Below, piece by piece: positions 1 through 10,753 of a stretch of DNA of 47,449 nucleotides (position 1 is its first letter; each line of letters starts with the position of its first letter). Both the position numbers and the translations under genes were made by a program. The DNA lies in IMG/VR virus record IMGVR_UViG_2585427767_000006, one strand, 5' to 3'. The DNA is from a virus. Taxonomy: Duplodnaviria; Heunggongvirae; Uroviricota; Caudoviricetes. The notes beneath the pieces were generated by a model. The model saw nothing but the letters and a program-made list of their open reading frames with translations, was not told the origin of the DNA and searched no databases.

Positions 1-235
1 TCAATAAATCCCATCATTGCGATCAACCTCATCCTTAACCATTGATGCGAGCAGTTCTTCCAGTTTCTGCGCTGACAGCTTTACCTGGTGATCTTCAGCA
101 TCTTCCCGGGCTATTGTGGTTCGCGCAGTGGCTGATTTTGCTGACATCACCACAGGGGGCAGACGGACCATTGAACCATGGCCTCCGGAACAAATAAGGG
201 CAAAAATAACAACCACTATCGAAAGCTCACAAACT

Positions 236-405
236 AACCGCAGCACGTTCCTGCATACGACGTGTCTGCGGCATAATCCCAATGATTACTCCCTGACAGG
301 ATTTGCAGGCCACTCAATATCAGGTGCAGTTGATGTATCAACACGATTCAACAATACCCGATATTTATTCCATGCCTCCAGCAACGATCTTTCTTCCTCC
401 GTTGC
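236..405. repeat. Direct repeat copy 1 (~170 bp), derived from the 3' end of tfa
   Basis: Sequence from AACCGCAGCACGTTC through TTCTTCCTCCGTTGC recurs at 1286..1454 with roughly 85-90% identity judged by eye (offset ~1050 bp). Confidence 0.7.
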
Positions 406-555
406 GATTTCCAGATCTACAGCATCCTGCAGTGGCGCAATATACTCACTGAATTCCTGGATGTAGAACTGTGTGGTGACGGTCTTCCAGCCATTCGGCT
501 CCTGCTGTATCGAAGCATACCAGGCTATTTCAATATCGCTATGCTGCGGCAGCAT
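286..555 (-). pseudogene. tfa: Tail fibre assembly protein Tfa, C-terminal fragment only
   Basis: C-terminal ~55 aa ([54 protein letters not shown]) closely match the C-terminus of lambda Tfa; the N-terminal half of a ~194-aa Tfa is absent. Confidence 0.6.
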
Positions 556-611
556 TTAACCCCTTGTAATTCATCGCCATAATTGATTTAATTCACAAAT
601 AAAACTATAAC

Positions 612-1280
612 ATGGTGAAATTAATGAAAAAAAACACAGATGATGGGGCTAAAATTTACACACCACTTACCCTAAAGCTTTATGACTGGTGGGTTTTGGG
701 AGTATCAAATCGGCTTGCATGGGGATGTCCTACAAAGGAACACCTTCTTCCACACTTTCTGGAACATTTAGGTAACAACCATCTGGATATTGGTGTTGGA
801 ACTGGGTTTTACCTTACTCACGTACCTGAGAGTAGTCTGATATCTTTAATGGATTTGAACGAAGCTAGCCTGAACGCGGCATCTACAAGGGCTGGGGAAT
901 CAAAAATTAAACATAAAATTAGCCATGATGTTTTTGAACCTTATCCCGCGGCGTTACATGGTCAATTTGATTCCATTTCCATGTTTTACCTTCTTCACTG
1001 CCTGCCTGGAAATATATCTACAAAAAGCTGTGTAATACGCAATGCGGCGCAGGCCTTAACTGACGATGGAACTCTATACGGAGCCACAATTCTTGGCGAT
1101 GGAGTTGTGCACAATAGCTTCGGTCAAAAACTGATGCGCATTTACAATCAGAAAGGCATCTTTTCAAACACAAAAGATTCCGAAGAAGGCTTAACACATA
1201 TACTCTCAGAGCATTTCGAGAATGTTAAAACCAAGGTTCAAGGTACTGTAGTAATGTTTTCCGCTTCAGGGAAAAAATAG
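612..1280 (+). CDS. Class I SAM-dependent methyltransferase (cargo gene; substrate unknown)
   Basis: 222-aa ORF with Rossmann motif I LDIGVGTG followed by an acidic post-I residue (LMDLNEASL); no DPPY/NPPY DNA-MTase motif; AT-rich upstream region; opposite strand to the tail genes. Confidence 0.7.
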   Translation: MVKLMKKNTDDGAKIYTPLTLKLYDWWVLGVSNRLAWGCPTKEHLLPHFLEHLGNNHLDIGVGTGFYLTHVPESSLISLMDLNEASLNAASTRAGESKIKHKISHDVFEPYPAALHGQFDSISMFYLLHCLPGNISTKSCVIRNAAQALTDDGTLYGATILGDGVVHNSFGQKLMRIYNQKGIFSNTKDSEEGLTHILSEHFENVKTKVQGTVVMFSASGKK

Positions 1281-1285
1281 CATCC

Positions 1286-1454
1286 AACCGCAGCACGTTC
1301 TTGCTTAAGACGTGCTGCGGCATAATCCCAATGATTACTCCCTGACAGGGTTCGTAGGCCACTCAATATCAGGTGCAGTTGATGTATCAACACGGTTCAG
1401 CAGCATCCGATACTTTTTCCAGGCTTCCAGCAACGGGGTTTCTTCCTCCGTTGC
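1286..1454. repeat. Direct repeat copy 2, containing a second tfa 3' remnant (approx 1335..1470, minus strand, no start codon)
   Basis: Minus-strand translation gives ...[36 protein letters not shown], a Tfa C-terminus; the 5' part of the repeat forms an 11-bp dyad CCGCAGCACGT-N11-ACGTGCTGCGG. Confidence 0.65.
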
Positions 1455-1473
1455 ATATACAGCTCACCTTTTT

Positions 1474-1767
1474 TCACCCACGATTAACCAACAGCCAGAC
1501 CAGCAGACACGCCACCACCGGCACAGCAAAATCCATCAGGCTTGCCACATCCCATGCACGTGTATCAAAACCGCCCCACCACGGCATATTCATTCGCTTG
1601 CCATGCCCGAACATTTCAATCCAGCGATATTCTGCCTGGGTATGTTCACGCGCAATGAAGAACGTACAACCGGCTATCGCTCCGTAAGCCCAGTTTCCGG
1701 TAAAAAGACCAACCAGTATCTGCGCAGCCACAGCACAAAGTGCATGAAGTAAGGGGCTTATATCCAT
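1474..1767 (-). CDS. Small integral membrane protein (97 aa), last gene of the stf-coupled cassette
   Basis: Two or three hydrophobic segments (AVAAQILVGLFTGNWAYGAIAG; FAVPVVACLLVWLLV); strong SD AAAGGAGGAA 5 nt upstream of the ATG, 12 nt after the stop of the preceding gene. Confidence 0.5.
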   Translation of the reverse strand: MDISPLLHALCAVAAQILVGLFTGNWAYGAIAGCTFFIAREHTQAEYRWIEMFGHGKRMNMPWWGGFDTRAWDVASLMDFAVPVVACLLVWLLVNRG

Positions 1768-1779
1768 TATTTCCTCCTT

Positions 1780-2058
1780 TCAGCTCCATTCCCGAAGCGG
1801 TGTTTCCAGCTCCACGACATAATCAGAGAATACAGAAACATCAAACAAGTCATCAAGAATGCGAATGTTGACAAAATAACCGTCATTCCGGACACAGACA
1901 GGTTCTCCCTCTTCTGTTACCCCTGTTTCTGTGTAGGTGAAACCAATTTCATCGACTAACAGTTTATTCTGGAGGTCTTCATCCTCCTCCCAGTCAAGAG
2001 ATGACAGGAAGGATTTAAACTCTCTGTTACCAGGAAATTTCAAAGTTAAATCTTTCAT
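1780..2058 (-). CDS. Small acidic protein (92 aa), translationally coupled to stf; putative tail-fibre accessory/chaperone
   Basis: ATG overlaps the stf stop (ATGA) and is preceded by SD AAGGAGG inside the stf 3' end; acidic composition (DWEEDEDLQ). Confidence 0.5.
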   Translation of the reverse strand: MKDLTLKFPGNREFKSFLSSLDWEEDEDLQNKLLVDEIGFTYTETGVTEEGEPVCVRNDGYFVNIRILDDLFDVSVFSDYVVELETPLREWS

Positions 2059-4079
2059 ACTGCCTCCTTGATTTGCCTGTCATTTAATTCTTTAAACCAG
2101 ACTCTGAAATTTCTGATGTGTCCAAACAAATGACGCGTTCCTGCTGCGGTCTGCCCACCAAACCGGTACGATGTTGCTGTAATTCCAAATATTTTACCAT
2201 TAAGGTTTGTTGTATAATTACCATTGCATATTGCATTTACTGATAAATCAGATTTAGCTCTCACACCCACAATGAACCTTTCTCCATCTGAGGCAATTTG
2301 TGGCTGAACCATTCCTACGTTGGCGCTTATCTTTCCTGTTGAAACAAACCCCAGCGATAAATAATTATCATCAATACTGTGCCCTCCAACATCAAATATC
2401 CTTGGCGCAACATTGGGCGGTGTACTCCAGCTCCTGCTTACTTCGCACAATACCGTAAAAGGCCTTGTTGACAGGTTATTCTGCGATGGGATAGTAACTA
2501 CATCACTTGCGCGTGTTGTTGGCATTGTAGTTACAATAAATGACGATGCCGTATTGCCCAGTTCAATTTGCGGCGTCGTCATGGTTAATGTTGAGTCATC
2601 ATAGAATGGCTCATTACTTATTTTGTTTGACATATAAAAAGCACAGTTAACGGTATCAATATCCGTATTAGCTGTATAAGTGGACTCATAGTAAGTCCAC
2701 TCACCCTGTTGTTCAGCTTTGGCCGTTATAAGGGATGTATTACCGCTTACTGTTGCAATCCGGGTATCCAGATCAAGATAAGAGTCAGCAGAGAAGGTAT
2801 CTGTTCCACCAATAATAACTGAAACTCTTAACCTGCATCGTGCTTTAGCGCCTTTAACCCGGCACGAAAAAGTGAAACATTCACCACTTGCCAGCGGGAA
2901 TCTGTCTGCTGCAACCACACCATGCACAGTATAGCCACCTGTTGTTCCCACTATACTTTCCGTGGGTGTCACCGTGGCATAATTGAACCCCCGTTTATCA
3001 GTGCCAAATGTTTTATTCAGTGCGGAATGAACAGTCCATGAGTCTGGTTTATTTGAGTTCCTCAGATAATTTGTCCTCTGTCCTTCAATCAATAAGCCAT
3101 CGCGCTCAAATCGCGGTTCATCAACTTCAGCAAGCTTGAGTTGGCCGGACTTATTAATATACGTTGCTGTTGAAGCACGTTTAAACTTAACAATCTTGTC
3201 GCCTGGCATTGTTATTTCATCGTCACCTATAACAATCTTTTTATATGATGGCGAAAAACCCGTAATCATATCCAGTGAATCGTTAAACGGTATCCACACA
3301 TCAGGCAGCGGCGGCACTATATTCACATAGGGCTCTGCAGTCACTTCCGCTGCGGCTTCTGCGCGGTCTGCCGCCTTTTCAGCTCGTGTCGCTGCCGACA
3401 GAGCCTCATCCTTTTTCTGCCCGGCCGTTGTTGCGTCTGCTGCGGCCTCCCGCGCTTTTGTGGTGGCGATTCCGGCATTCTCAGCGGCTGACTCTGCATT
3501 ACGGCGGGAAGCCTCTTCACTGCCTGCGGAGGCTTCCTCTGACGCACGGGCATTTGTCTCTGAACGTTCTGCCGCTGTTGCTGCATTTTGTGCGGCTGTT
3601 TTTGAAGAAGCTGCCGCTTTCGCGCTGTTACCTGCATTCGTCTCTGATGTTTTCGCCGCGTTCCTGGACGATGCCGCTGCTGTTTCTGATTTCTTTGCTG
3701 CCGCTGCGCTCTGAGAGGCGGCTTCAGCGTTGCGTGCCACCTCTTCCACCATCTTTTCAAAACGATACAGTGCCTCCGGACGAACATCATCTTCTGTTGC
3801 AGCGCCCAGAAAATCATTCAATGTCCCCGGCTTAGAATCCTCATACACGGTGATGGCCCCGGCATGTGAAGGCGGAAAACCTTCAACCAGCAGGATAACG
3901 CTGTACTGGCCATACTCGACATCCATGCTGTAACGTCCGGCTTCATCCGGATTTTCTGAGGCCACCGTGTTCACCACAACCGTGGTGCTGTTACGTTTTG
4001 CTTTGAGCTGAATGGTGCAGTTCTGTATTGGTTTTCCCGCACCATCTTTCAGCACACCTGAGATTTTTACTGCTGCCAT
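2055..4079 (-). CDS. stf: Side tail fibre protein Stf
   Basis: N-terminus MAAVKISGVLKDGAGKPIQNCTIQLKAKRNSTTVVVNTV... matches lambda Stf; Ala/Ser/Glu-rich repeat region follows; C-terminal part is divergent. ORF-track start 4085 is GTG; ATG at 4079 aligns with lambda. Confidence 0.85.
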   Translation of the reverse strand: MAAVKISGVLKDGAGKPIQNCTIQLKAKRNSTTVVVNTVASENPDEAGRYSMDVEYGQYSVILLVEGFPPSHAGAITVYEDSKPGTLNDFLGAATEDDVRPEALYRFEKMVEEVARNAEAASQSAAAAKKSETAAASSRNAAKTSETNAGNSAKAAASSKTAAQNAATAAERSETNARASEEASAGSEEASRRNAESAAENAGIATTKAREAAADATTAGQKKDEALSAATRAEKAADRAEAAAEVTAEPYVNIVPPLPDVWIPFNDSLDMITGFSPSYKKIVIGDDEITMPGDKIVKFKRASTATYINKSGQLKLAEVDEPRFERDGLLIEGQRTNYLRNSNKPDSWTVHSALNKTFGTDKRGFNYATVTPTESIVGTTGGYTVHGVVAADRFPLASGECFTFSCRVKGAKARCRLRVSVIIGGTDTFSADSYLDLDTRIATVSGNTSLITAKAEQQGEWTYYESTYTANTDIDTVNCAFYMSNKISNEPFYDDSTLTMTTPQIELGNTASSFIVTTMPTTRASDVVTIPSQNNLSTRPFTVLCEVSRSWSTPPNVAPRIFDVGGHSIDDNYLSLGFVSTGKISANVGMVQPQIASDGERFIVGVRAKSDLSVNAICNGNYTTNLNGKIFGITATSYRFGGQTAAGTRHLFGHIRNFRVWFKELNDRQIKEAV

Positions 4080-4095
4080 ATCCACTCCACAAAAA

Positions 4096-4117
4096 AGCCC
4101 GCCTGAACCGGCGGGCT
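4096..4117 (-). terminator. Intrinsic terminator downstream of lom
   Basis: Perfect 8-bp stem AGCCCGCC/GGCGGGCT with 6-nt loop, followed on the minus strand by a run of 6 U. Confidence 0.6.
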
Positions 4118-4143
4118 GTCATAACACTGTGTTACCTGGCTAA

Positions 4144-4743
4144 TCAGAACTTATAACCGACACCCACGATGAAACCGTCAGTGCGCCAGTCGCCACTGCC
4201 GGAGCCTTCATAAGCAATATCAATGGCCACGGATTCGGTCGGGTTAAACTGCACGCCAGCTCCCCACGCCAGAGACGTGTTGCTGTGGCGATCGTCATCA
4301 CTTCCGGTCAGCACATCGTGCGTTTTCCCCTTGTTGTCAGTTACGCGGAGATAATCCCCGGAGAACGTCGAAACACGGCTGTAAGCCACACCTGCCATCG
4401 CATAAGCACTGAACCATTCATTCACGCGTACAGATGGCCCCGCCATCATGCTGAACCAGCGGTTACGCACTGAATCTTCATGCCAGCGGGTATCGCTGTA
4501 ATGCGTTCTTTGCTCATCTTTGGCATTGGCATAACTGAATGACGTCACCAGCCCCAGCGTGTCCGTAAATTCATAACGGTATTTCACGTTAATGCCCTTC
4601 AGGTCATCACTGCCTGGCATATCAGTATGGGTCTGAAGATACCCGGCGCTTAGTGTGGACTGATGCTCTGCTGCGCTCGCTGGCGTACCAGCGGCAACCA
4701 GCCAGACTACTGCGGACAGAATAACAGCACATAATTTACGCAT
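4144..4743 (-). CDS. lom: Outer membrane protein Lom (Ail/PagC/OmpX family)
   Basis: 199-aa protein with signal peptide and beta-barrel ending in C-terminal F; matches lambda Lom; SD GAGAGG upstream. Confidence 0.9.
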   Translation of the reverse strand: MRKLCAVILSAVVWLVAAGTPASAAEHQSTLSAGYLQTHTDMPGSDDLKGINVKYRYEFTDTLGLVTSFSYANAKDEQRTHYSDTRWHEDSVRNRWFSMMAGPSVRVNEWFSAYAMAGVAYSRVSTFSGDYLRVTDNKGKTHDVLTGSDDDRHSNTSLAWGAGVQFNPTESVAIDIAYEGSGSGDWRTDGFIVGVGYKF

Positions 4744-4767
4744 AATTACCTCTCGCTTTTCTGCAAT

Positions 4768-4791
4768 AAAAAAGGCACCATTTCTGGTGCC
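4768..4791 (-). terminator. Intrinsic terminator between J and lom
   Basis: Stem GGCACC/GGTGCC, loop ATTTCT, followed on the minus strand by UUUUUU. Confidence 0.5.
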
Positions 4792-4810
4792 CGTATCTGG
4801 GTTATAAAAT

Positions 4811-7800
4811 TCAGCTAATCGTGATGCCTGCAGTGGCTTTCTTCATCACAACAACCAGCAAATCGCTGATACTTGCTGTGGGATACCAGCCATTTACCAG
4901 CCATGCTGACACCGAAAACTCCAGTGTCATGTGACCGTGACCGGCAGGCATATCAATAACGCCACTGTAAATCAGCGTATTATCCAGCGCGGTACGGTTA
5001 TAAATTTCAGCACCGTTTTTCCGCACTATCAGACGGCATGAGGAGTAAATATCAGTATGCTCTCTCTCATGCTTAGCGCCACTGAATGCCACCGCCGGAA
5101 TAACAATTTGCCGGTCAAACGGCTGATCGTCATAAACCCTGACGGTAATGGTCCCTGATGGCCACCGCTCCGGTGCTCGGGAGTCCCGGGGGAAAGCTTT
5201 ACCCACTGTTTTAACGAGATCGCCTTCAATCTGGTTCGCGGACAGTTTTCCCAGAACCCGGCAGTTCTCGTTAATCGTGACGTTGTTGAGCGTCCCGGAG
5301 TTCGCATTCACGTTACCGCTGATATCGGCATTTTTCGCCGTCAGCCGCCCGTCCGGTGTCAGGGAAAATGCCGGAGGATTACCGCCGCTGGTAATGGTGG
5401 GAGCCGTCAGATATTTCAGGAACACTTCGTTCATGAATATCTGATCGCCCTGACCAACAAACATCGGCTTTGTGTTGCCATTCGCAGGATTAACCATCGC
5501 AATCCTGTCCGCCGCCAGCAGCACCTGACTCTGCATGCCGTCAGGGGTGTTCTCAATACCGGCACCAATACCCGCGATATAAAGGCGTCCGTCCTGCATC
5601 TGCTGCAGCTTCACAGCCCACATGCTGTTCAGGTTATTATTTGTATCAACCTGAACTTTCTGTATCTGCTGGATTGCCGCACTCTGATTTTCCAGTTTTT
5701 TATTGACGGTCTGCGTGATTTCATTGCTGACATTCGTAATGGACGTCCTGATTTCAGCCAGGTCCGGCGCAAGCTGACCGTTATCAATCTGCGTCCACAG
5801 CTCCTGAGCCAGATGGCTTTTCCCTATCTCGCCTTTGAAAAAATCCAGATAGCCGGATGCATCATCACTCGGCTGGCCAACAGCCTCCACAAATGCCGAT
5901 TTGCCAACGGTGTTCACACTGCGGATGTAAAAATAATAATCATGGCCCGGTTTGATATTGATACTGGCAGCTATCCAGTACAGCGCCGTGCCAAGATAAC
6001 GCGCGCTGGTTTCAACCTGCCTGATATCCGCAATCCGATTTTCCGAGAACCAGAACTCAAACTGTACCGTCGGATCATAAACCGCAAGATGCGGCGTGGC
6101 GGTTATCTGAAAATAGCCCGGCGTCAGCTCAATCCGCGATGGCGCTGCCGGTGCGGCAATCCGGAACGATACCGACGCCGGATCGCCCTGCTGCCCCCAC
6201 GCATTTACCGCCCGGACTGTCAGACTGTAATTTCCCAGAGCCAGCTGCCTGAAGCGGTATGTGGTTTCCGTCGTCCGGGCCGTGCTGACCAGCCGCTCAC
6301 TGCCGTCATCCGCTGCCACGGTCAGGCGAAGCATAAAGCTCACGCCCTTCACCACCTTCGGCGTATCCCAGCGCGCCAGCACCTGGTATTCCCCGCTGTC
6401 TGCGGTGACTTCGGCGGTCAGGTGCTGCACCGCTGGCGGCGTGACACCATTCACCGTGCCGCTCTGGTCGCCGTCAAAGTGCGCCCCGTTATCCACGATG
6501 GCTTCTTTTTCCGGTACATGCTGCACGGCAGTGATGGCATACGTGCCGTCATCGTTCTCACGGATACTCACACAGCGGAACAGGCGCTGGCGCAGCGTCG
6601 GCAGCTTCAGCCCCCACACGCTGTATTCGGCAACGCCGTCAGGAACCCGACTCACTTTCACCTTCACGCCGTCGGTGACGGACTGAACCTCCACGCTGAC
6701 CGGACTCCCCTGCCCGTCAACCAGGCTTATCAGCGTGGTACCGGAGGATGGCAGCGTGATTTCACGGTCGAGCGTCAGCGTCCGGGTCTGGCTGTTCACC
6801 GCCAGCACGCGCCCGCCAATGCTGATCCCCGCATAGTCATCATCGCAGATTTCAATAACATCACCCGGTACATGGCGAAGCCCTTCTGCGCCGACGCTGA
6901 AATCCACGGTCTGCGTTTCCAGCAGTTCTGTTTTAATCAGCCACAGCCCGGCGCGGTGTGCCTGCCCCCGGCTGGTACAGCCAAAGGCATCCATCTTCGT
7001 GACGTTACGACCGTAACGGGCAATGGCCTGCGTGTCCTCCACAAGCTCTGTCGCCGTCTCCCAGCCGTTATCCGGGTCAATCCAGTTCACCTCAACGGCA
7101 TTATGACGGTCCTTCAGGGCGCTGAAGCTGTAGCGGAACGGCGCGCCATCATCCGGCATCACCACATTACTGCGGTTATAGGTCCACACCTTATCCGATG
7201 GCCGGTCCTGCACGAACGTCAGCGTCTGCCCGTTCCATACCGGCATACAGCGCATCGCCGAGCAGAAATCACTGAGCACATCCCACGCCTTGCGCTGCGT
7301 GGTCAGCCAGGCATTACAGGTGATGCGCGGCTCCGTGCCACCAAAGCCATCCGGCACCGACTGGTCGCAATTCTGGCCGATGACATACAGCGCCCATTTG
7401 TCCACATCCGCCGCACCGAGACGCTTCCCCATGCCGTAGCGCGGATGGGTCAGCATATCCCACAGACACCAGGCCATGTTGTTGCTGTATGCCGGTTTAA
7501 ACGTCCCGTCCCAGATACCGCTGTATTGCCGCGTCTGCGGGTTATAGTTCGACGGCACCTGCAGAATACGCCCGCGCAGATGATAATTACGGCTCACCTG
7601 CTGGCTGCCGAACTGCTCCGAGTCCACCTGCACGCCGACCAGTGCCGTGTTCGGGTAGCACTGTTTCACATCGATGATTTCGGTGTATGACGACCAGAGC
7701 GTTTTGTTCTGCAGCTGGTCTGTGGTGCTGTCCGGCGTCATCCTGCGCATCCGGATATTAAACGGGCGCGGCGGCAGGTTATCCACCACCACTGAGGCCA

Positions 7801-8290
7801 GATACTGCGAGGTGGTTTTACCCTTAATGGTGATGTCTTTTTCCGTCACCCAGCCACCGTTACGTTGTATCTGAACCAGCAGGCGGACTTCCGATGGATT
7901 CCTGTCCCCCTTTGAGGTGGTTTCCACCAGTGCCTGCACACCGAAGGTAAAGCGCAGACGGTCGATGTTTGCCGACGTGATGGTGCGGGTGATCGGCGTG
8001 TCATATTTCACTTCCGTACCCAGCACCGTCTCGGAACCGGAGGATTCAAATCCCTCCGGCGGAGTCTGCTCCTGCTCACCGGCCCGGAACACCACCGTGA
8101 CGCCGGATATATTGGTATTCCCCTCACTGTCCAGCACCGGCGTACTGTTCAGCAGCACGCTTTTTAATCCATCCACCGGACCTTCAACCGGCCCTTCGCT
8201 GATGGCATCGATCACACTCAGCAGCTGCGTGGATTTCAGGTTGTCCTTCGCTTCGCGCGGGGTATGCCCCTTACTGCTTCCTTTACCCAT
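4811..8290 (-). CDS. J: Host specificity / central tail fibre protein J
   Basis: 1159-aa protein in the lambda J position directly after I; fibronectin-like middle and C-terminal receptor-binding region. Confidence 0.95.
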
Positions 8291-8305
8291 TCCTCACACT
8301 CCATA

Positions 8306-8332
8306 AACAACAAAGCCGCCCAAAAGGCGGCT
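8306..8332 (-). terminator. Intrinsic terminator between the lipoprotein moron and the J start
   Basis: Stem AGCCGCC/GGCGGCT with loop CAAAA, followed on the minus strand by UUUGUUGUUU; lies 25-45 nt upstream of the J ATG. Confidence 0.5.
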
Positions 8333-8356
8333 CATGAGTTACAGCAGGATTAACTA

Positions 8357-8695
8357 TTATTTACATGCATTAACACTATCAGCAAAAATTTTTGGCGTTA
8401 ATGCTGGTACACGTTCATAAAGAGTAAAACTACTGCCATTTCCTGCTTTTTTGATATCAAGCACAACATCATATCCCCCCATAGCCTGTGGAACTAAAAG
8501 GCTTACCCCATTCTCAATAGGAAGGGATGTTATAGGTGTTCCATTACCAGCCCATTGTCTGGATATGCAGCCTGACAATTCATCAATATTTTTTAATGAA
8601 TTACCTTCCATTACAGGTTTTCCGGATTTTACGTAATCCAAAGATTTACATCCTGTTAAGGCAATAATCGTGCAGAATAAAATCGTTTTGTTCAT
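8357..8695 (-). CDS. Lipoprotein (moron inserted between tail genes I and J)
   Basis: Signal peptide MNKTILFCTIIALTGC with lipobox LTGC; AT-rich island 8296..8767; lambda has no gene between I and J. ORF-track start 8707 is TTG; ATG at 8695. Confidence 0.6.
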   Translation of the reverse strand: MNKTILFCTIIALTGCKSLDYVKSGKPVMEGNSLKNIDELSGCISRQWAGNGTPITSLPIENGVSLLVPQAMGGYDVVLDIKKAGNGSSFTLYERVPALTPKIFADSVNACK

Positions 8696-8767
8696 ATAGC
8701 TAACCAATAGAATAATTATCAGTGTTCGATATAAATATTAAATCAGTTAGAACATGAGTAAATAATA

Positions 8768-9409
8768 TTACCGCCCAATTACCACAACCTGACCACCATC
8801 CCCTTCATCTGCCGTGCTGATCTCCTGAGATGCCACACGTGACCCCACGCGCATTTCACCGTACAGAACAGGCAGGACATTGCCCTGGGCAACCATGTTA
8901 TCCAGTGAGGAGAAATAGGTGTTCTGTTTGCCGTTATCCGTTGTCTGTGTACGTGGAGTTTTGGGTTTAGGGGCCAGCATCTGTGCGACACCACCAAGCG
9001 TCATCGCTGCCCCCATAGAAAAGAGAATGTCACTGAAAGCGATACTGATTCCTGGCATCCAGATTGCCGTAGCAATCAGCGCCGCACCCAGCACTGCCTG
9101 AAAAACACCACCACTTTTGGCACCCGCCAGACGCGGTACGATGTGGATCACGGCACCATTTGCCAGCGGCTCATTAAGACGGGATGATAATTCGGTTTCT
9201 CCTGCATCCCGCCCGGCAATCCGTACCTGATACCAGCCATCGCTCAGTTTCTGACGAAACGCCGGGAGCTGTGTGGCCAGTGCCCGGATGGCTTCAGCCC
9301 CCGTTTTCACACGAAGGTCGATGCGGCGGCCAAATCGTTGCAAATCCCCGTAAAGGCAGATGCGTGCCATGCCCGGTGACGCCAGAGGGAGTGTGTGCGT
9401 CGCTGCCAT
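8768..9409 (-). CDS. I: Tail assembly protein I
   Basis: N-terminus MAATHTLPLASPGMARICLYGDLQRFGRRIDLRVKTGAEAIRALATQLPAFRQKLSDGWYQVRIAGRD and C-terminus NGKQNTYFSSLDNMVAQGNVLPVLYGEMRVGSRVASQEISTADEGDGGQVVVIGR match lambda gpI almost exactly, by eye. Confidence 0.9.
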   Translation of the reverse strand: MAATHTLPLASPGMARICLYGDLQRFGRRIDLRVKTGAEAIRALATQLPAFRQKLSDGWYQVRIAGRDAGETELSSRLNEPLANGAVIHIVPRLAGAKSGGVFQAVLGAALIATAIWMPGISIAFSDILFSMGAAMTLGGVAQMLAPKPKTPRTQTTDNGKQNTYFSSLDNMVAQGNVLPVLYGEMRVGSRVASQEISTADEGDGGQVVVIGR

Positions 9410-10050
9410 TTGTCGGTGTACCTCTCTCGTTTGCTCAGTTGTTCAGGAATATGGTGCAGCAGCTCGCCATCACCACAGTAAATGGCGGCATGATTCGGCA
9501 CCGATGAACCAAAACAGCACAGCAGCACATCGCCCGGTTGTGCTGATGACAACGGCACCTGATACAGCCCTGTGGCCTCCAGATTATCCAGATAGAGATT
9601 CTGACCGTGACGCCACCAGTCATCCTCGCGATGAAAATCCGGCATCTCAATCCCCGCCAGATGATAAGCATCCCGGAACAGCGTGTAACAGTCCGTCACC
9701 CCGTGCTCAAAGCGCCGCCCGGTGAGATGCGGCACACAGCGGAACTTATGAATCGCCCCCCGGCAGACCAGCAACCACGGCAAATCACTCTGCACCTGCA
9801 GCCGCCGGTCAGCCTCACTCAGCCAGGGCAGACCACCGGGGTGGCTGTGGACCAGCGCCACAATCTCACCCTGCATTTCTGCCTGCAGCCAGTCCTCCGG
9901 AGCCATCCGGAAATAATCCTCCGGCTCACCGGAGATATTCACGCAGGGGAAATATCTTTCCCCCTCCGGCGTGCTTACCACGAAGCCGCACGACTCCGCT
10001 GGCGCACATCGCCGGGCGTGCGCCAGAATCGCTGATTCTGTCTCTGTCAT
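9307..10050 (-). CDS. K: Tail tip assembly protein K (MPN/JAB plus NlpC/P60 domains)
   Basis: HSHPGG...SEAD JAB motif and a C-terminal Cys/His NlpC/P60 region; overlaps I by ~100 nt as in lambda; start taken at ATG 10050 (ORF-track start 10092 lies inside L). Confidence 0.85.
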   Translation of the reverse strand: MTETESAILAHARRCAPAESCGFVVSTPEGERYFPCVNISGEPEDYFRMAPEDWLQAEMQGEIVALVHSHPGGLPWLSEADRRLQVQSDLPWLLVCRGAIHKFRCVPHLTGRRFEHGVTDCYTLFRDAYHLAGIEMPDFHREDDWWRHGQNLYLDNLEATGLYQVPLSSAQPGDVLLCCFGSSVPNHAAIYCGDGELLHHIPEQLSKRERYTDKWQRRTHSLWRHRAWHASAFTGICNDLAAASTFV

Positions 10051-10054
10051 GGGA

Positions 10055-10753
10055 TTACTGCGAAAGTTTGTTAATGGAAAGGAAGCCGCCAAAGTTGCCG
10101 ACGTTATTGCGAAACTTACAGCCGCTCAGGCATTTGCTGCATTTATCCTTCGTGATATCGGACGTCGGCTGGTCATATTCATCCGCGACTGCCGGACCGT
10201 GATAACCGCACTCATCACCGCGATAGGTCCAGGTGCAGGTGTTGGCCAGCATGATACGCCCCGGAAAAACAGCGCCATCCGTTTCCGTCGGCGTGGACAG
10301 TACAAAGGAGGCACTCACCGCGCTCAGTTCGCTGCACTGCTCGATGCGCCAGCGGCTGATCACCTCCTGCTCCGGATCGGCGTCACTGTTTCCGTTGACG
10401 AAGTTCACCGCATCCAGAAAACGGGCGTAAACCTTACGCCGGACCACCGTTCCGCCGACCAGACTCTGCAGATCTTCCGCCATCCCGGTGACCATACCGT
10501 ACAGGTTAGAAACCGTCAGCGTGGGGCGCGTACTGGTGCCTTTGCCATTCAGTTCAAAACCACTCCCCTGAATGGGATACGGCTGATACTGTCGCCCCTG
10601 CCAGGTGACCGGCTCACCTTTTTCGTTCTGCTCATTACAGAAAAAATAACGTTCTCCACCGACCTCTGTCAGGTCGATTTCCCAGAGCACCACGCTGGCC
10701 GACTGCTCCGCACGGGTGCATTCATTCAGTGTTTCCTGCCGGATATCCTGCAT
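10055..10753 (-). CDS. L: Minor tail protein L
   Basis: 232-aa ORF in lambda order between M and K; Cys-rich C-terminus. Confidence 0.9.
   Translation of the reverse strand: MQDIRQETLNECTRAEQSASVVLWEIDLTEVGGERYFFCNEQNEKGEPVTWQGRQYQPYPIQGSGFELNGKGTSTRPTLTVSNLYGMVTGMAEDLQSLVGGTVVRRKVYARFLDAVNFVNGNSDADPEQEVISRWRIEQCSELSAVSASFVLSTPTETDGAVFPGRIMLANTCTWTYRGDECGYHGPAVADEYDQPTSDITKDKCSKCLSGCKFRNNVGNFGGFLSINKLSQ

What the first reader, a model, noticed from the sequence alone, without database searches (positions are those of the whole stretch)
8296..8767. AT-rich lipoprotein moron inserted between tail genes I and J
In lambda J follows I directly. Here a ~470-bp AT-rich island carries a lipoprotein gene (lipobox LTGC after the signal peptide MNKTILFCTIIALTGC) on the same strand, and an intrinsic terminator sits only ~25 nt upstream of the J ATG. 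A lipoprotein next to the receptor-binding protein is the typical position for a superinfection-exclusion factor (Cor/Llp-like logic) or a lysogenic-conversion surface protein.
Basis: partly seen in the sequence, partly recalled or inferred. Interest (0 to 1): 0.55.

Follow-up and report, generated by a model that had tools for sequence, protein, structure and literature searches.

The report
Lipoprotein moron inside phage tail operon

Summary
On the minus strand, a 112-aa prelipoprotein gene (8357-8695; MNKTILFCTIIALTG|C) lies between tail genes I (8768-9409) and J (4811-8290). GC is 0.36 in the gene against 0.57-0.60 in the flanks, and a hairpin with a T-tract follows at 8333-8303. Compared with lambda and with most E. 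coli prophages, this is a 417-bp insertion, found in 334 of 5,426 complete E. coli genomes. The hairpin itself is homologous to one lambda already has before J.

The protein belongs to PHROG 914 (function unknown). It has no Pfam, PADLOC or PDB sequence match. The lipobox and two further cysteines are invariant, no member has Asp at +2, and pN/pS is 0.16. The predicted fold is a generic small alpha/beta domain.

Homologues occupy three different tail-operon slots (I|J, K|I, T|tape-measure), always co-oriented and always followed by a terminator. The same protein sits upstream of at least four J receptor-domain classes. This window's J receptor domain occurs in more than 50 phages that lack the gene. 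The protein is not homologous to Cor, T5 Llp, mEpimmI Lpp021/Lpp010 or Bor.

Verdict: a genuine moron encoding an outer-membrane lipoprotein of unknown function. The most likely role is prophage-conferred phage exclusion, or another envelope conversion, that is not matched to the phage's own receptor. Interest is moderate.

The parts
8768..9409 (-). Tail assembly protein I gene, upstream neighbour. This is the longest ORF; PGAP starts it at 9343.
   Evidence: Pfam PF06805 Lambda_tail_I E 4.5e-24 and PHROG 32 tail assembly protein E 2.5e-83. The 3' end aligns with the lambda I 3' end.
8344..8765 (-). Inserted moron cassette relative to the lambda-type empty I-J junction. Net insertion is 417 bp; boundaries are good to about 10 nt.
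   Evidence: Pairwise alignment with the lambda I-J junction. The empty junction spans 284 bp against 701 bp here, between the same anchors in E. coli genomes. GC is 0.32-0.39.
8696..8767 (-). 72-nt AT-rich spacer between the I stop codon and the lipoprotein ATG. It is the presumed site of a moron promoter, which is not demonstrated. The Shine-Dalgarno sequence is weak.
   Evidence: No sigma-70 match at >=9/12 on this strand. By eye, the best candidates reach 8/12: TTTACT-16-TAATAT and TTTAAT-16-GATAAT (sequence).
8357..8695 (-). Prelipoprotein gene, 112 aa plus stop. PHROG 914; WP_001332187.1, annotated 'hypothetical protein'.
   Evidence: ORF. PHROG 914 E 7.3e-33 over the full length. The exact sequence is on >=1000 public contigs. 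57 of 61 E. coli copies are intact, with 11 synonymous against 6 nonsynonymous polymorphic sites and pN/pS 0.16.
8648..8695 (-). Signal peptide (codons 1-15) and lipobox L-T-G-C. Cys16 (8648-8650) is the predicted lipid-attachment residue; Lys is at +2.
   Evidence: The lipobox is present in all 56 aligned members. No member has Asp at +2.
8303..8333 (-). Intrinsic-terminator-like hairpin (9-bp stem, 6 GC pairs) plus T-rich tail, immediately before the J ribosome-binding site. Homologous to the hairpin in lambda's I-J spacer.
   Evidence: -18.7 kcal/mol, z -2.8. Lambda homologue. An equivalent hairpin plus T-run follows the gene in the K|I and T|H slots.
4811..8290 (-). Tail tip / host-specificity protein J gene, downstream neighbour.
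   Evidence: Pfam FNIII-A_GpJ, Phage-tail_3, Ig_J, Ig_J_second, Phage_Tail_Tip, Ig_GpJ_C. The last 199 aa are 54% identical to lambda J. The last 149 aa are 98-100% identical to phage 2G7b, PPompW prophages and VT1-Sakai.

Best explanation
The island is a moron: a 417-bp, horizontally acquired, AT-rich cassette of one gene followed by a terminator hairpin. It sits in the I-J intergenic spacer of a lambda-like prophage integrated at ompW.

Its product is exported, cleaved by signal peptidase II at LTG|C, lipidated on Cys16 and sorted by Lol to the inner leaflet of the outer membrane, because +2 is Lys and not Asp. A 96-residue alpha/beta domain (beta-alpha-beta4-alpha), probably clamped by a Cys43-Cys111 disulfide, then faces the periplasm.

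These steps follow from the sequence and from its conservation. The next steps are inferred. The gene is probably transcribed on its own in the lysogen and by read-through of the Q-antiterminated late transcript during lytic growth. The protein probably acts as an envelope-conversion factor whose most likely benefit is to exclude other phages.

The gene is linked neither to a particular J receptor domain nor to a particular tape-measure protein, and it moves between three tail-operon slots. So if it excludes phages, it does so as a stand-alone factor: either by masking a host envelope component conserved across Enterobacteriaceae, or by blocking a periplasmic step of injection, as HK97 gp15 and Ltp do. 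It does not act as a Cor/Llp-type mask matched to the phage's own receptor-binding protein.
For: Moron architecture:
- Extra DNA relative to lambda and to about 92% of E. coli genomes that carry this junction.
- GC 0.36 against 0.57-0.60 in the flanks.
- A hairpin plus T-run follows the gene in every slot.
- The gene is co-oriented with the tail genes in all ~90 loci examined.

Lipoprotein:
- The lipobox and Cys16, Cys43 and Cys111 are invariant in 56 diverse members. No member has Asp at +2. 48 of 55 have exactly three cysteines.
- The AF2 model is confident: pLDDT 83.6, pTM 0.75.

Functional gene:
- pN/pS is 0.16 and 57 of 61 copies are intact.
- Homologues are 50-62% identical across five genera, with a conserved PQAMGGYDVVLD block.

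Stand-alone, not matched to the receptor-binding protein:
- Three slots.
- At least four J classes accompany the identical protein.
- The tape-measure protein H is 25-100% identical among loci whose lipoprotein is 99-100% identical.
- This J receptor domain occurs without the gene in 53 phage records.
- Fraca has both cor and a homologue.

Precedents for exclusion by tail-module morons and phage lipoproteins:
- HK97 gp15 lies between the chaperone and the tape-measure gene and blocks DNA entry without touching the receptor (PMC3594210).
- Lpp021 and Lpp010 exclude phages experimentally (PMC11893012).
- The Ltp lipoprotein targets the tape-measure protein (Bebeacua 2013, as cited in PMC3952083).
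Against: - No experiment and no homology to any protein of known function. PHROG 914 is 'unknown function'. There is no Pfam, NCBIfam, PADLOC or PDB sequence match.
- No consensus promoter upstream, and the Shine-Dalgarno sequence of this copy is weak. In the K|I slot the upstream gap is only about 30 nt. Expression from the repressed prophage is therefore unproven.
- In this copy the terminator is the junction's own hairpin.
- Lipoprotein-positive genomes usually carry 2-4 lambda-type I-J junctions and are not depleted relative to other genomes. This argues weakly against broad exclusion of lambda-tailed phages.
- Distant family members are chromosomal and syntenic, outside prophages. The ancestral function is therefore cellular, not antiviral.
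Confidence: 0.45

Rival explanations
1. Cor/Llp-type receptor mask: the lipoprotein binds and inactivates the outer-membrane receptor used by this phage's own J protein. It would block homotypic superinfection and protect progeny from adsorbing to debris.
For: It is an outer-membrane-sorted lipoprotein, in this window directly upstream of J. Every tested enterobacterial phage lipoprotein of this size class works this way: Cor, T5 Llp (annotation), and Lpp021/Lpp010 (PMC11893012). Co-orientation with the late operon would give late expression, as for Llp.
Against: There is no homology to Cor, Llp, Lpp021 or Lpp010 beyond the signal peptide. Adjacency to J is not conserved, given the K|I and T|H slots. 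The identical protein accompanies at least four J receptor-domain classes. The same J receptor domain is widespread without it. Klebsiella homologues (52% identical) accompany 3,100-3,400-aa J proteins of quite different architecture. Fraca has a separate cor gene.
Confidence: 0.15
2. Lysogenic-conversion fitness or virulence factor unrelated to phages (Bor/Iss-like or Flpp3-like): an outer-membrane lipoprotein that alters serum resistance, envelope stress tolerance, adhesion or small-molecule binding, to the host's benefit.
For: The gene is carried by 6% of E. coli genomes, including clinical, avian and O104:H4 strains. The fold resembles the helix-grip/Bet v1-like Francisella virulence lipoprotein Flpp3 and the BamC N-domain. 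The wider family includes chromosomal, syntenic members with a cellular role. There is no linkage to any phage specificity determinant. Lom, another conversion gene, lies just downstream of J.
Confidence: 0.25
3. Lytic-cycle function: the gene is expressed mainly from the late transcript. It would serve the phage itself, for example by preventing progeny from injecting into lysed-cell debris or vesicles, or by modulating envelope disruption at lysis.
For: The gene is invariably co-oriented inside the late tail operon in three independent slots, with very short upstream gaps of 30-86 nt. There is no detectable own promoter. In lambdoid phages Q-modified polymerase reads through terminators such as the hairpin before J, which lambda also has (established lambda biology).
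Against: The terminator immediately after the gene in every slot is the hallmark of an independently expressed moron (PMC3594210). More than 90% of closely related prophages do without the gene, so it is not needed for tail function or lysis. The prophage has its own lysis region elsewhere in the window (ORFs near 25.6-27.6 kb; not analysed further).
Confidence: 0.1
4. Decaying or selfish cargo with no current function.
For: Occasional disruption: IS1 inside the gene in strain 24AR0376, two frameshifted copies, one copy with indels and one truncated copy in IMG/VR, and a frameshifted P0002.
Against: pN/pS is 0.16. 57 of 61 copies are intact. Residues are invariant across genera and across 56 diverse family members.
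Confidence: 0.03

Closest known systems
HK97 gp15 moron (YebO-like superinfection-exclusion protein)
   Same: A single small envelope-protein gene inserted into a lambda/HK97-type tail operon, co-oriented, with deviant GC and a terminator. The Enterobacter members of this family occupy exactly the gp15 slot, between the tail chaperone and the tape-measure gene (PMC3594210). Both have chromosomal non-phage relatives. gp15 excludes phages without touching the receptor.
   Different: gp15 is an inner-membrane protein of the YebO family. This protein is a lipoprotein predicted to go to the outer membrane. It gave no Pfam match of any kind, which would include YebO if that family is in the copy searched. 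No exclusion phenotype is known for it.
Cor (phi80 / N15 / HK022 / Fraca) and T5 Llp receptor-masking lipoproteins
   Same: Small phage-encoded outer-membrane lipoproteins encoded in or next to the tail region. In this window the gene abuts the host-specificity gene J.
   Different: Unrelated sequences: only the signal peptides align. Cor and Llp are about 60-aa mature proteins, against 97 aa here. Cor and Llp stay next to their cognate receptor-binding gene. This family does not. Fraca carries both.
mEpimmI Lpp021 (type A) and Lpp010 (type C) exclusion lipoproteins (PMC11893012)
   Same: Coliphage lipoproteins encoded within the structural gene cluster of siphoviruses with lambda-like K, I and J genes. 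They are experimentally shown to exclude phages, Lpp010 even lambda.
   Different: 72 and 82 aa, unrelated in sequence. They are encoded downstream of J on the opposite strand. Their specificity follows the receptor (OmpA, LamB).
Ltp of Streptococcus thermophilus phage TP-J34
   Same: A prophage-encoded lipoprotein. Its target is the incoming phage's tape-measure protein rather than the receptor (Bebeacua 2013, cited in PMC3952083). This is a precedent for a receptor-independent mechanism.
   Different: It comes from a Gram-positive host, is surface-exposed, is encoded in the lysogeny module and has a different fold. No sequence relationship was tested or is expected.
Lambda Bor / Iss serum-resistance lipoprotein
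   Same: A lambdoid-prophage outer-membrane lipoprotein of about 100 aa, expressed in lysogens, that benefits the host.
   Different: There is no Pfam Lambda_Bor match in any of 56 family members. Bor lies by the lysis genes, not in the tail operon.
Flpp3 / DUF3568 lipoprotein (Francisella), BamC N-domain, DUF302
   Different: 6-12% identity and no sequence-profile relationship. The fold is common, and none of these proteins has a function that transfers.

Membership tests
Moron (Juhala/Hendrix definition, as summarised in PMC3594210) | Extra DNA absent from closely related phages at the same junction | tested here: met
   It is a 417-bp insertion relative to lambda and to the common empty junction. 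334 of 4,251 genomes with such a junction carry it.
Moron (Juhala/Hendrix definition, as summarised in PMC3594210) | Base composition differing from the surrounding genes | tested here: met
   GC is 0.36 against 0.57/0.60 here. It is 0.41-0.45 against 0.49-0.55 in nine other loci.
Moron (Juhala/Hendrix definition, as summarised in PMC3594210) | Own terminator | tested here: met
   A hairpin plus T-run lies directly after the gene in all three slots. Caveat: in this copy the hairpin is homologous to lambda's resident I-J hairpin.
Moron (Juhala/Hendrix definition, as summarised in PMC3594210) | Own promoter | tested here: inconclusive
   No sigma-70 consensus match at >=9/12 upstream on the coding strand. 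There are only 8/12 candidates, in AT-rich DNA.
Moron (Juhala/Hendrix definition, as summarised in PMC3594210) | Expression from the repressed prophage | not testable with these tools
   This needs RNA-seq, 5'RACE or proteomics of a lysogen.
Bacterial lipoprotein (signal peptidase II substrate) | N-terminal signal peptide ending in the lipobox [LVI][ASTVI][GAS]C | tested here: met
   MNKTILFCTIIALTG|C. A lipobox is present in 56 of 56 family members.
Bacterial lipoprotein (signal peptidase II substrate) | Outer-membrane sorting (no Asp at +2, E. coli Lol rule) | tested here: met
   +2 is Lys here. None of 55 scored members has Asp. This is a rule-based prediction only.
Bacterial lipoprotein (signal peptidase II substrate) | Actual lipidation and globomycin-sensitive processing | not testable with these tools
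   Experimental.
PHROG 914 (phage protein family of unknown function) | Full-length match to the family HMM | tested here: met
   E 7.3e-33, residues 1-112 on profile positions 1-118 of 118.
Cor superinfection-exclusion lipoproteins | Sequence homology to Cor | tested here: not met
   hhalign of the family profile against Fraca Cor aligns only the signal peptide and about 10 further residues. No superinfection-exclusion PHROG matched at E<=0.1.
Cor superinfection-exclusion lipoproteins | Encoded next to, and travelling with, the receptor-binding / tail-fibre gene | tested here: not met
   Three slots, two of them not adjacent to J. Double dissociation from the J receptor domain.
Cor superinfection-exclusion lipoproteins | Inactivation of FhuA / block of adsorption | not testable with these tools
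   Experimental.
T5 Llp lytic-conversion lipoprotein | Sequence homology to Llp | tested here: not met
   hhalign against T5 Llp (AAS77197) aligns only residues 1-20, the signal peptide.
mEpimmI Lpp exclusion lipoproteins (types A and C) | Sequence homology to Lpp021 or Lpp010 | tested here: not met
   hhalign probabilities are 17% and 31%, over signal-peptide residues only.
HK97 gp15 / YebO | YebO-like inner-membrane protein | tested here: not met
   No Pfam match of any kind. The protein is a lipoprotein without a transmembrane helix after cleavage. gp15 itself was not aligned directly.
HK97 gp15 / YebO | Moron located between the tail chaperone and tape-measure genes | tested here: met
   This is met for the Enterobacter/Citrobacter members (P0014; loci L008-L010, L072-L077). 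It is not met for this window's copy, which is at I|J.
Lambda Bor / Iss | Match to Pfam Lambda_Bor | tested here: not met
   No match in the window protein or in any of 56 members.
DUF3568 (Flpp3-like lipoproteins) | Sequence-profile membership | tested here: not met

The most novel reading that the evidence does not exclude
The family is a new class of receptor-independent exclusion lipoprotein. Anchored in the outer membrane and facing the periplasm, it would intercept a conserved component of the lambda/HK97-type tail-tip injection machinery as that component crosses the periplasm. Candidates are the tape-measure C-terminal domain, the central-fibre N-terminal part of J, or gpL, gpM, gpK or gpI. 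This would explain why the phage branch is found only inside such tail operons across Escherichia, Klebsiella, Enterobacter, Kluyvera and Jejubacter, whichever J receptor domain is attached.
Probability: 0.15. Interest if true: 0.7.

Novelty: new variant of a known kind. Interest (0 to 1): 0.35.

Why it matters
Morons in tail operons are where temperate phages keep genes that change the lysogen's surface. The few that have been tested (gp15, Cor, Llp, Lpp021/010) all turned out to be phage-exclusion factors.

This family is common: 6% of complete E. coli genomes, including O104:H4, and more than 1,000 public contigs with the identical protein, plus Klebsiella, Enterobacter and Citrobacter. It is under purifying selection. 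It is completely uncharacterised and absent from defence-system catalogues.

It is decoupled from the receptor-binding domain. If it does exclude phages, it would therefore act more broadly than the receptor-matched lipoproteins, which matters for phage therapy against these genera and for understanding polylysogeny. If instead it is a host-fitness factor, it is a widespread unrecognised conversion gene.

Either way the test is cheap: clone one 339-bp gene and run plating and adsorption assays.

Tried and rejected
- Named families. Pfam, NCBIfam and PADLOC scans of the protein and of 56 family members gave nothing. The only NCBIfam hit was VirB7, E 0.08, signal peptide only.
- PDB by sequence profile: nothing below E 0.5.
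- Direct profile comparison with Cor, T5 Llp, Lpp021, Lpp010 and phiAH14a p83: only the signal peptide or tether aligns.
- Island DNA in sequenced phages: absent at megablast level. By tblastn only Fraca and LMessi match, at 29-31%.
- Literature. Searches for WP_001332187 and phrog_914 found no papers. Keyword searches found no description of this gene.
- Promoter. No consensus sigma-70 site on the coding strand here or in the other slots.
- RNA. There is no Rfam family in the island. GcvB scored 19.5 bits against a 42-bit threshold, which is chance.
- Opposite-strand ORFs in the island (8451-8636 and 8536-8667, plus strand) were rejected. The polymorphism pattern is synonymous-biased in the minus-strand frame, and only that frame is conserved across genera.
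- The search for related loci with the broad alignment A3 failed because it has no conserved stretch. A2 was used instead.
- Crude test for exclusion of lambda-tailed prophages. 22 of 24 lipoprotein-positive genomes listed have at least two I-J junctions, against 34 of 54 sampled lipoprotein-negative ones. There is no depletion. The sample is biased by ranking and the order of acquisition is unknown, so this is only weak evidence.
- Linkage to the tape-measure protein. H is 25-100% identical among loci with the identical lipoprotein, so genomic linkage does not point to H as a cognate partner either.
Full report
**1. What is in the sequence**

All the genes concerned are on the minus strand.
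- Gene I is 8768-9409 (Pfam Lambda_tail_I, E 4.5e-24).
- Gene J is 4811-8290, 1159 aa, with six gpJ-specific Pfam domains.
- M, L and K lie upstream of I, and lom and a side tail-fibre gene lie downstream of J. This matches an identical annotated E. coli copy whose prophage abuts a truncated ompW and the yciE/trp region.

The 477-bp I-J interval holds a single ORF, 8357-8695, of 112 aa (MNKTILFCTIIALTG|CKSLDYVKSG...). GC drops to 0.32-0.39 across 8300-8800, from 0.55-0.63 on either side.

A 9-bp GC-rich hairpin with a T-rich tail lies at 8333-8303, just before the J ribosome-binding site. It folds at -18.7 kcal/mol, z -2.8.

**2. Boundaries of the insertion, and a correction**

I aligned the junction with lambda's I-J junction. 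The I 3' end and the J 5' end are collinear. Lambda's 60-nt spacer already contains a homologous hairpin (AAACCGCC-TGC-GGGCGGTTT, then TGTCATTTAT) at the same distance from the J ATG.

So the "terminator 25 nt before J" is a resident feature of the lambda-type junction. The cassette lies between the I stop codon and that hairpin, roughly 8344-8765.

In complete E. coli genomes the same anchors are usually 284 bp apart, against 701 bp here. That makes the net insertion 417 bp. 334 of 5,426 genomes carry the island, out of 4,251 that have such a junction. They include human, poultry and environmental isolates and an O104:H4 strain.

**3. The protein**

It matches PHROG 914 ("unknown function") over its full length, E 7e-33. 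It matches nothing in Pfam, NCBIfam, PADLOC or PDB sequences. Every public annotation reads "hypothetical protein", "lipoprotein" or "phage protein". The identical sequence is on at least 1,000 contigs.

Homologues of 48-62% identity occur in Jejubacter, Kluyvera, Klebsiella, Enterobacter and Citrobacter. An exhaustive profile search finds 125 clusters at 50% identity, nearly all 105-125 aa.

In 56 diverse members:
- the lipid-attachment Cys16 and two further cysteines (Cys43, Cys111) are invariant;
- every member has a lipobox;
- none has Asp at +2;
- 48 of 55 have exactly three cysteines.

This is the signature of an exported, disulfide-bonded lipoprotein that the Lol pathway sends to the outer membrane. 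That destination is a rule-based inference.

AlphaFold2 gives a confident model (pLDDT 83.6, pTM 0.75) of a beta-alpha-beta4-alpha domain. Cys43 lies in the first long helix and Cys111 at the end of the C-terminal helix.

**4. The gene is functional**

Among 61 E. coli-type copies in IMG/VR and RefSeq loci, 57 are intact. They show 11 synonymous and 6 nonsynonymous polymorphic sites, pN/pS 0.16.

Decay does occur:
- IS1 sits inside the gene in strain 24AR0376;
- two copies are frameshifted, one has indels and one is truncated.

**5. Genomic behaviour of the family**

I used the window's own tail proteins as probes on about 90 loci. The gene is always inside a lambda/HK97-type tail operon and always co-oriented with it. 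It occupies three different slots:
- I|J in all E. coli copies;
- K|I in Klebsiella, Kluyvera, several metagenomic phages and phage Fraca;
- chaperone T | tape-measure H in Enterobacter and Citrobacter.

The third slot is exactly where the founding moron, HK97 gene 15, sits (PMC3594210).

In every slot the gene is more AT-rich than its flanks, and a GC hairpin plus T-run follows it immediately before the next tail gene. In the K|I slot lambda has no intergenic space at all, so there the terminator travels with the cassette.

No consensus sigma-70 promoter is detectable upstream in any slot. The upstream gaps are short, 30-86 nt.

More distant members (21-30% identity) lie outside tail operons. 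One clade is chromosomal and syntenic, lipoprotein | GspH-like pilin | uvrB. Others lie next to an integrase or an HTH gene. So the phage morons seem to derive from a cellular lipoprotein family, as gp15 does from YebO.

**6. Test of the Cor/Llp logic**

A receptor mask should travel with the receptor-binding domain. It does not.
- The 99-100% identical E. coli lipoprotein lies upstream of at least four J C-terminal classes. These have 100%, 74%, 55% and 18% identity-times-coverage to the window's last 250 aa.
- The last 149 aa of this window's J are >=95% identical in 53 sequenced phages (2G7b, PPompW prophages, VT1-Sakai, Stx2a phages). None of them encodes the lipoprotein, because tblastn over the same collection found only Fraca and LMessi.
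- Klebsiella homologues accompany J proteins of 3,100-3,400 aa with carbohydrate-binding modules.
- Fraca carries both a cor gene and a homologue of this protein.
- Profile comparisons with Fraca Cor, T5 Llp and the experimentally verified mEpimmI exclusion lipoproteins Lpp021 and Lpp010 align only the signal peptides. All four of those genes lie beside or downstream of the receptor-binding gene.

The tape-measure protein is equally unlinked: 25-100% identity among loci with the identical lipoprotein. Only the physically adjacent M-L-K-I block is constant.

**7. What it most likely does**

Shown or strongly supported: this is a moron that encodes a conserved, selected, outer-membrane-type lipoprotein.

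Inferred:
- It is expressed in the lysogen, as morons are by definition (PMC3594210). During lytic growth it would also be expressed by read-through of the antiterminated late transcript.
- It changes the envelope to the benefit of the lysogen or the phage.

Every tested small envelope protein encoded in siphovirus tail regions has proved to be a phage-exclusion factor:
- gp15 (PMC3594210);
- Cor and Llp;
- Lpp021/Lpp010 (PMC11893012);
- Ltp, which targets the tape-measure protein (Bebeacua 2013, cited in PMC3952083).

On that basis I rate exclusion the single most likely function, at about 0.45 including the receptor-independent variants. The data favour a stand-alone factor over a mask matched to the phage's own J, which I rate at about 0.15.

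A host-fitness role of the Bor/Flpp3 type is the main rival, at about 0.25. It is supported by the cellular relatives and the lack of any linkage to specificity determinants.

A purely lytic-cycle role rates about 0.1. It is suggested by the strict co-orientation and the missing promoter.

A crude population check argues weakly against very broad exclusion of lambda-tailed phages: lipoprotein-positive genomes still usually hold 2-4 lambda-type I-J junctions.

**8. Novelty and score**

The kind of element, a tail-operon moron encoding a small envelope protein, is well known. The protein family is uncharacterised and unrelated to all characterised exclusion lipoproteins. Its mobility between three tail-operon slots and its independence from the receptor-binding domain are new details.

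I class it as a new variant of a known kind, of moderate interest (0.35). The most novel reading not excluded is a periplasm-facing lipoprotein that blocks a conserved step of lambda-type tail-tip injection. I give that a probability of about 0.15, and it would be worth about 0.7 if true.

Noticed in passing
window 8303-8333 (-) and lambda J02459 15451-15500 (L082:2452-2501): Lambda itself has a conserved GC hairpin plus T-tract in its 60-nt I-J spacer, at the same distance from the J start codon as here (z -3.8). So there is a terminator-like structure inside the late tail operon even without any moron. It may be a regulatory element or the docking site or scar where cassettes insert.
   Followed up: partly
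L098 (NZ_CP195347.1, E. coli 24AR0376), locus 1921-2618: An IS1 element is inserted inside the lipoprotein gene between I and J. This is a natural knockout that could serve as a comparison strain.
   Followed up: partly
L070 3350-9525 (IMGVR_UViG_2836662228_000003): In this phage the K|I slot holds about 4.8 kb of cargo besides the lipoprotein gene: Arc/RHH, Bro-N, KilA-N and Cro/CI-type HTH proteins plus two unknown ORFs. The K-I junction is therefore a multi-gene cargo hotspot.
   Followed up: partly
L091 6239-6661 (Pseudomonas phage phiAH14a p83) and L088 45958-46524 (mEp021 gp78): Other, unrelated cargo uses the same junctions. A 140-aa lipoprotein that shares only the signal peptide and tether motif sits upstream of I in phiAH14a. 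An HNH endonuclease sits between I and J in mEp021.
   Followed up: partly
L086 7001-7339, L092 258-620, L093 1279-1641: A distant clade of the family (about 23% identity) is chromosomal and syntenic: lipoprotein, then a convergent GspH/FimU-like minor pilin, then uvrB. This is unrelated to prophages and hints at the ancestral cellular role of the family.
   Followed up: partly
L008 5960-6000 (Enterobacter, upstream of the lipoprotein gene in the T|H slot): An inverted repeat, CCTCCttacttctGGAGG, overlaps the Shine-Dalgarno sequence of the lipoprotein gene and could sequester it. This suggests possible translational control in that slot.
   Followed up: no
window 4811-5260 (-) and window 1-4800: The J receptor-binding domain is 98-100% identical to that of phage 2G7b, the 'PPompW' prophages and VT1-Sakai. 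The prophage sits beside an ompW remnant, so this is a PPompW-type prophage. Downstream of J lie lom, a side tail-fibre gene, several degraded tail-fibre assembly fragments and a SAM-dependent methyltransferase on the opposite strand (annotation of the identical locus L002).
   Followed up: partly
window 9307-10092 (-) versus 8768-9409 (-): The K gene (JAB/MPN plus NlpC/P60 domains) and the I gene overlap by about 100 nt, as in lambda. PGAP calls a shorter I (start equivalent to 9343) than the longest ORF.
   Followed up: no
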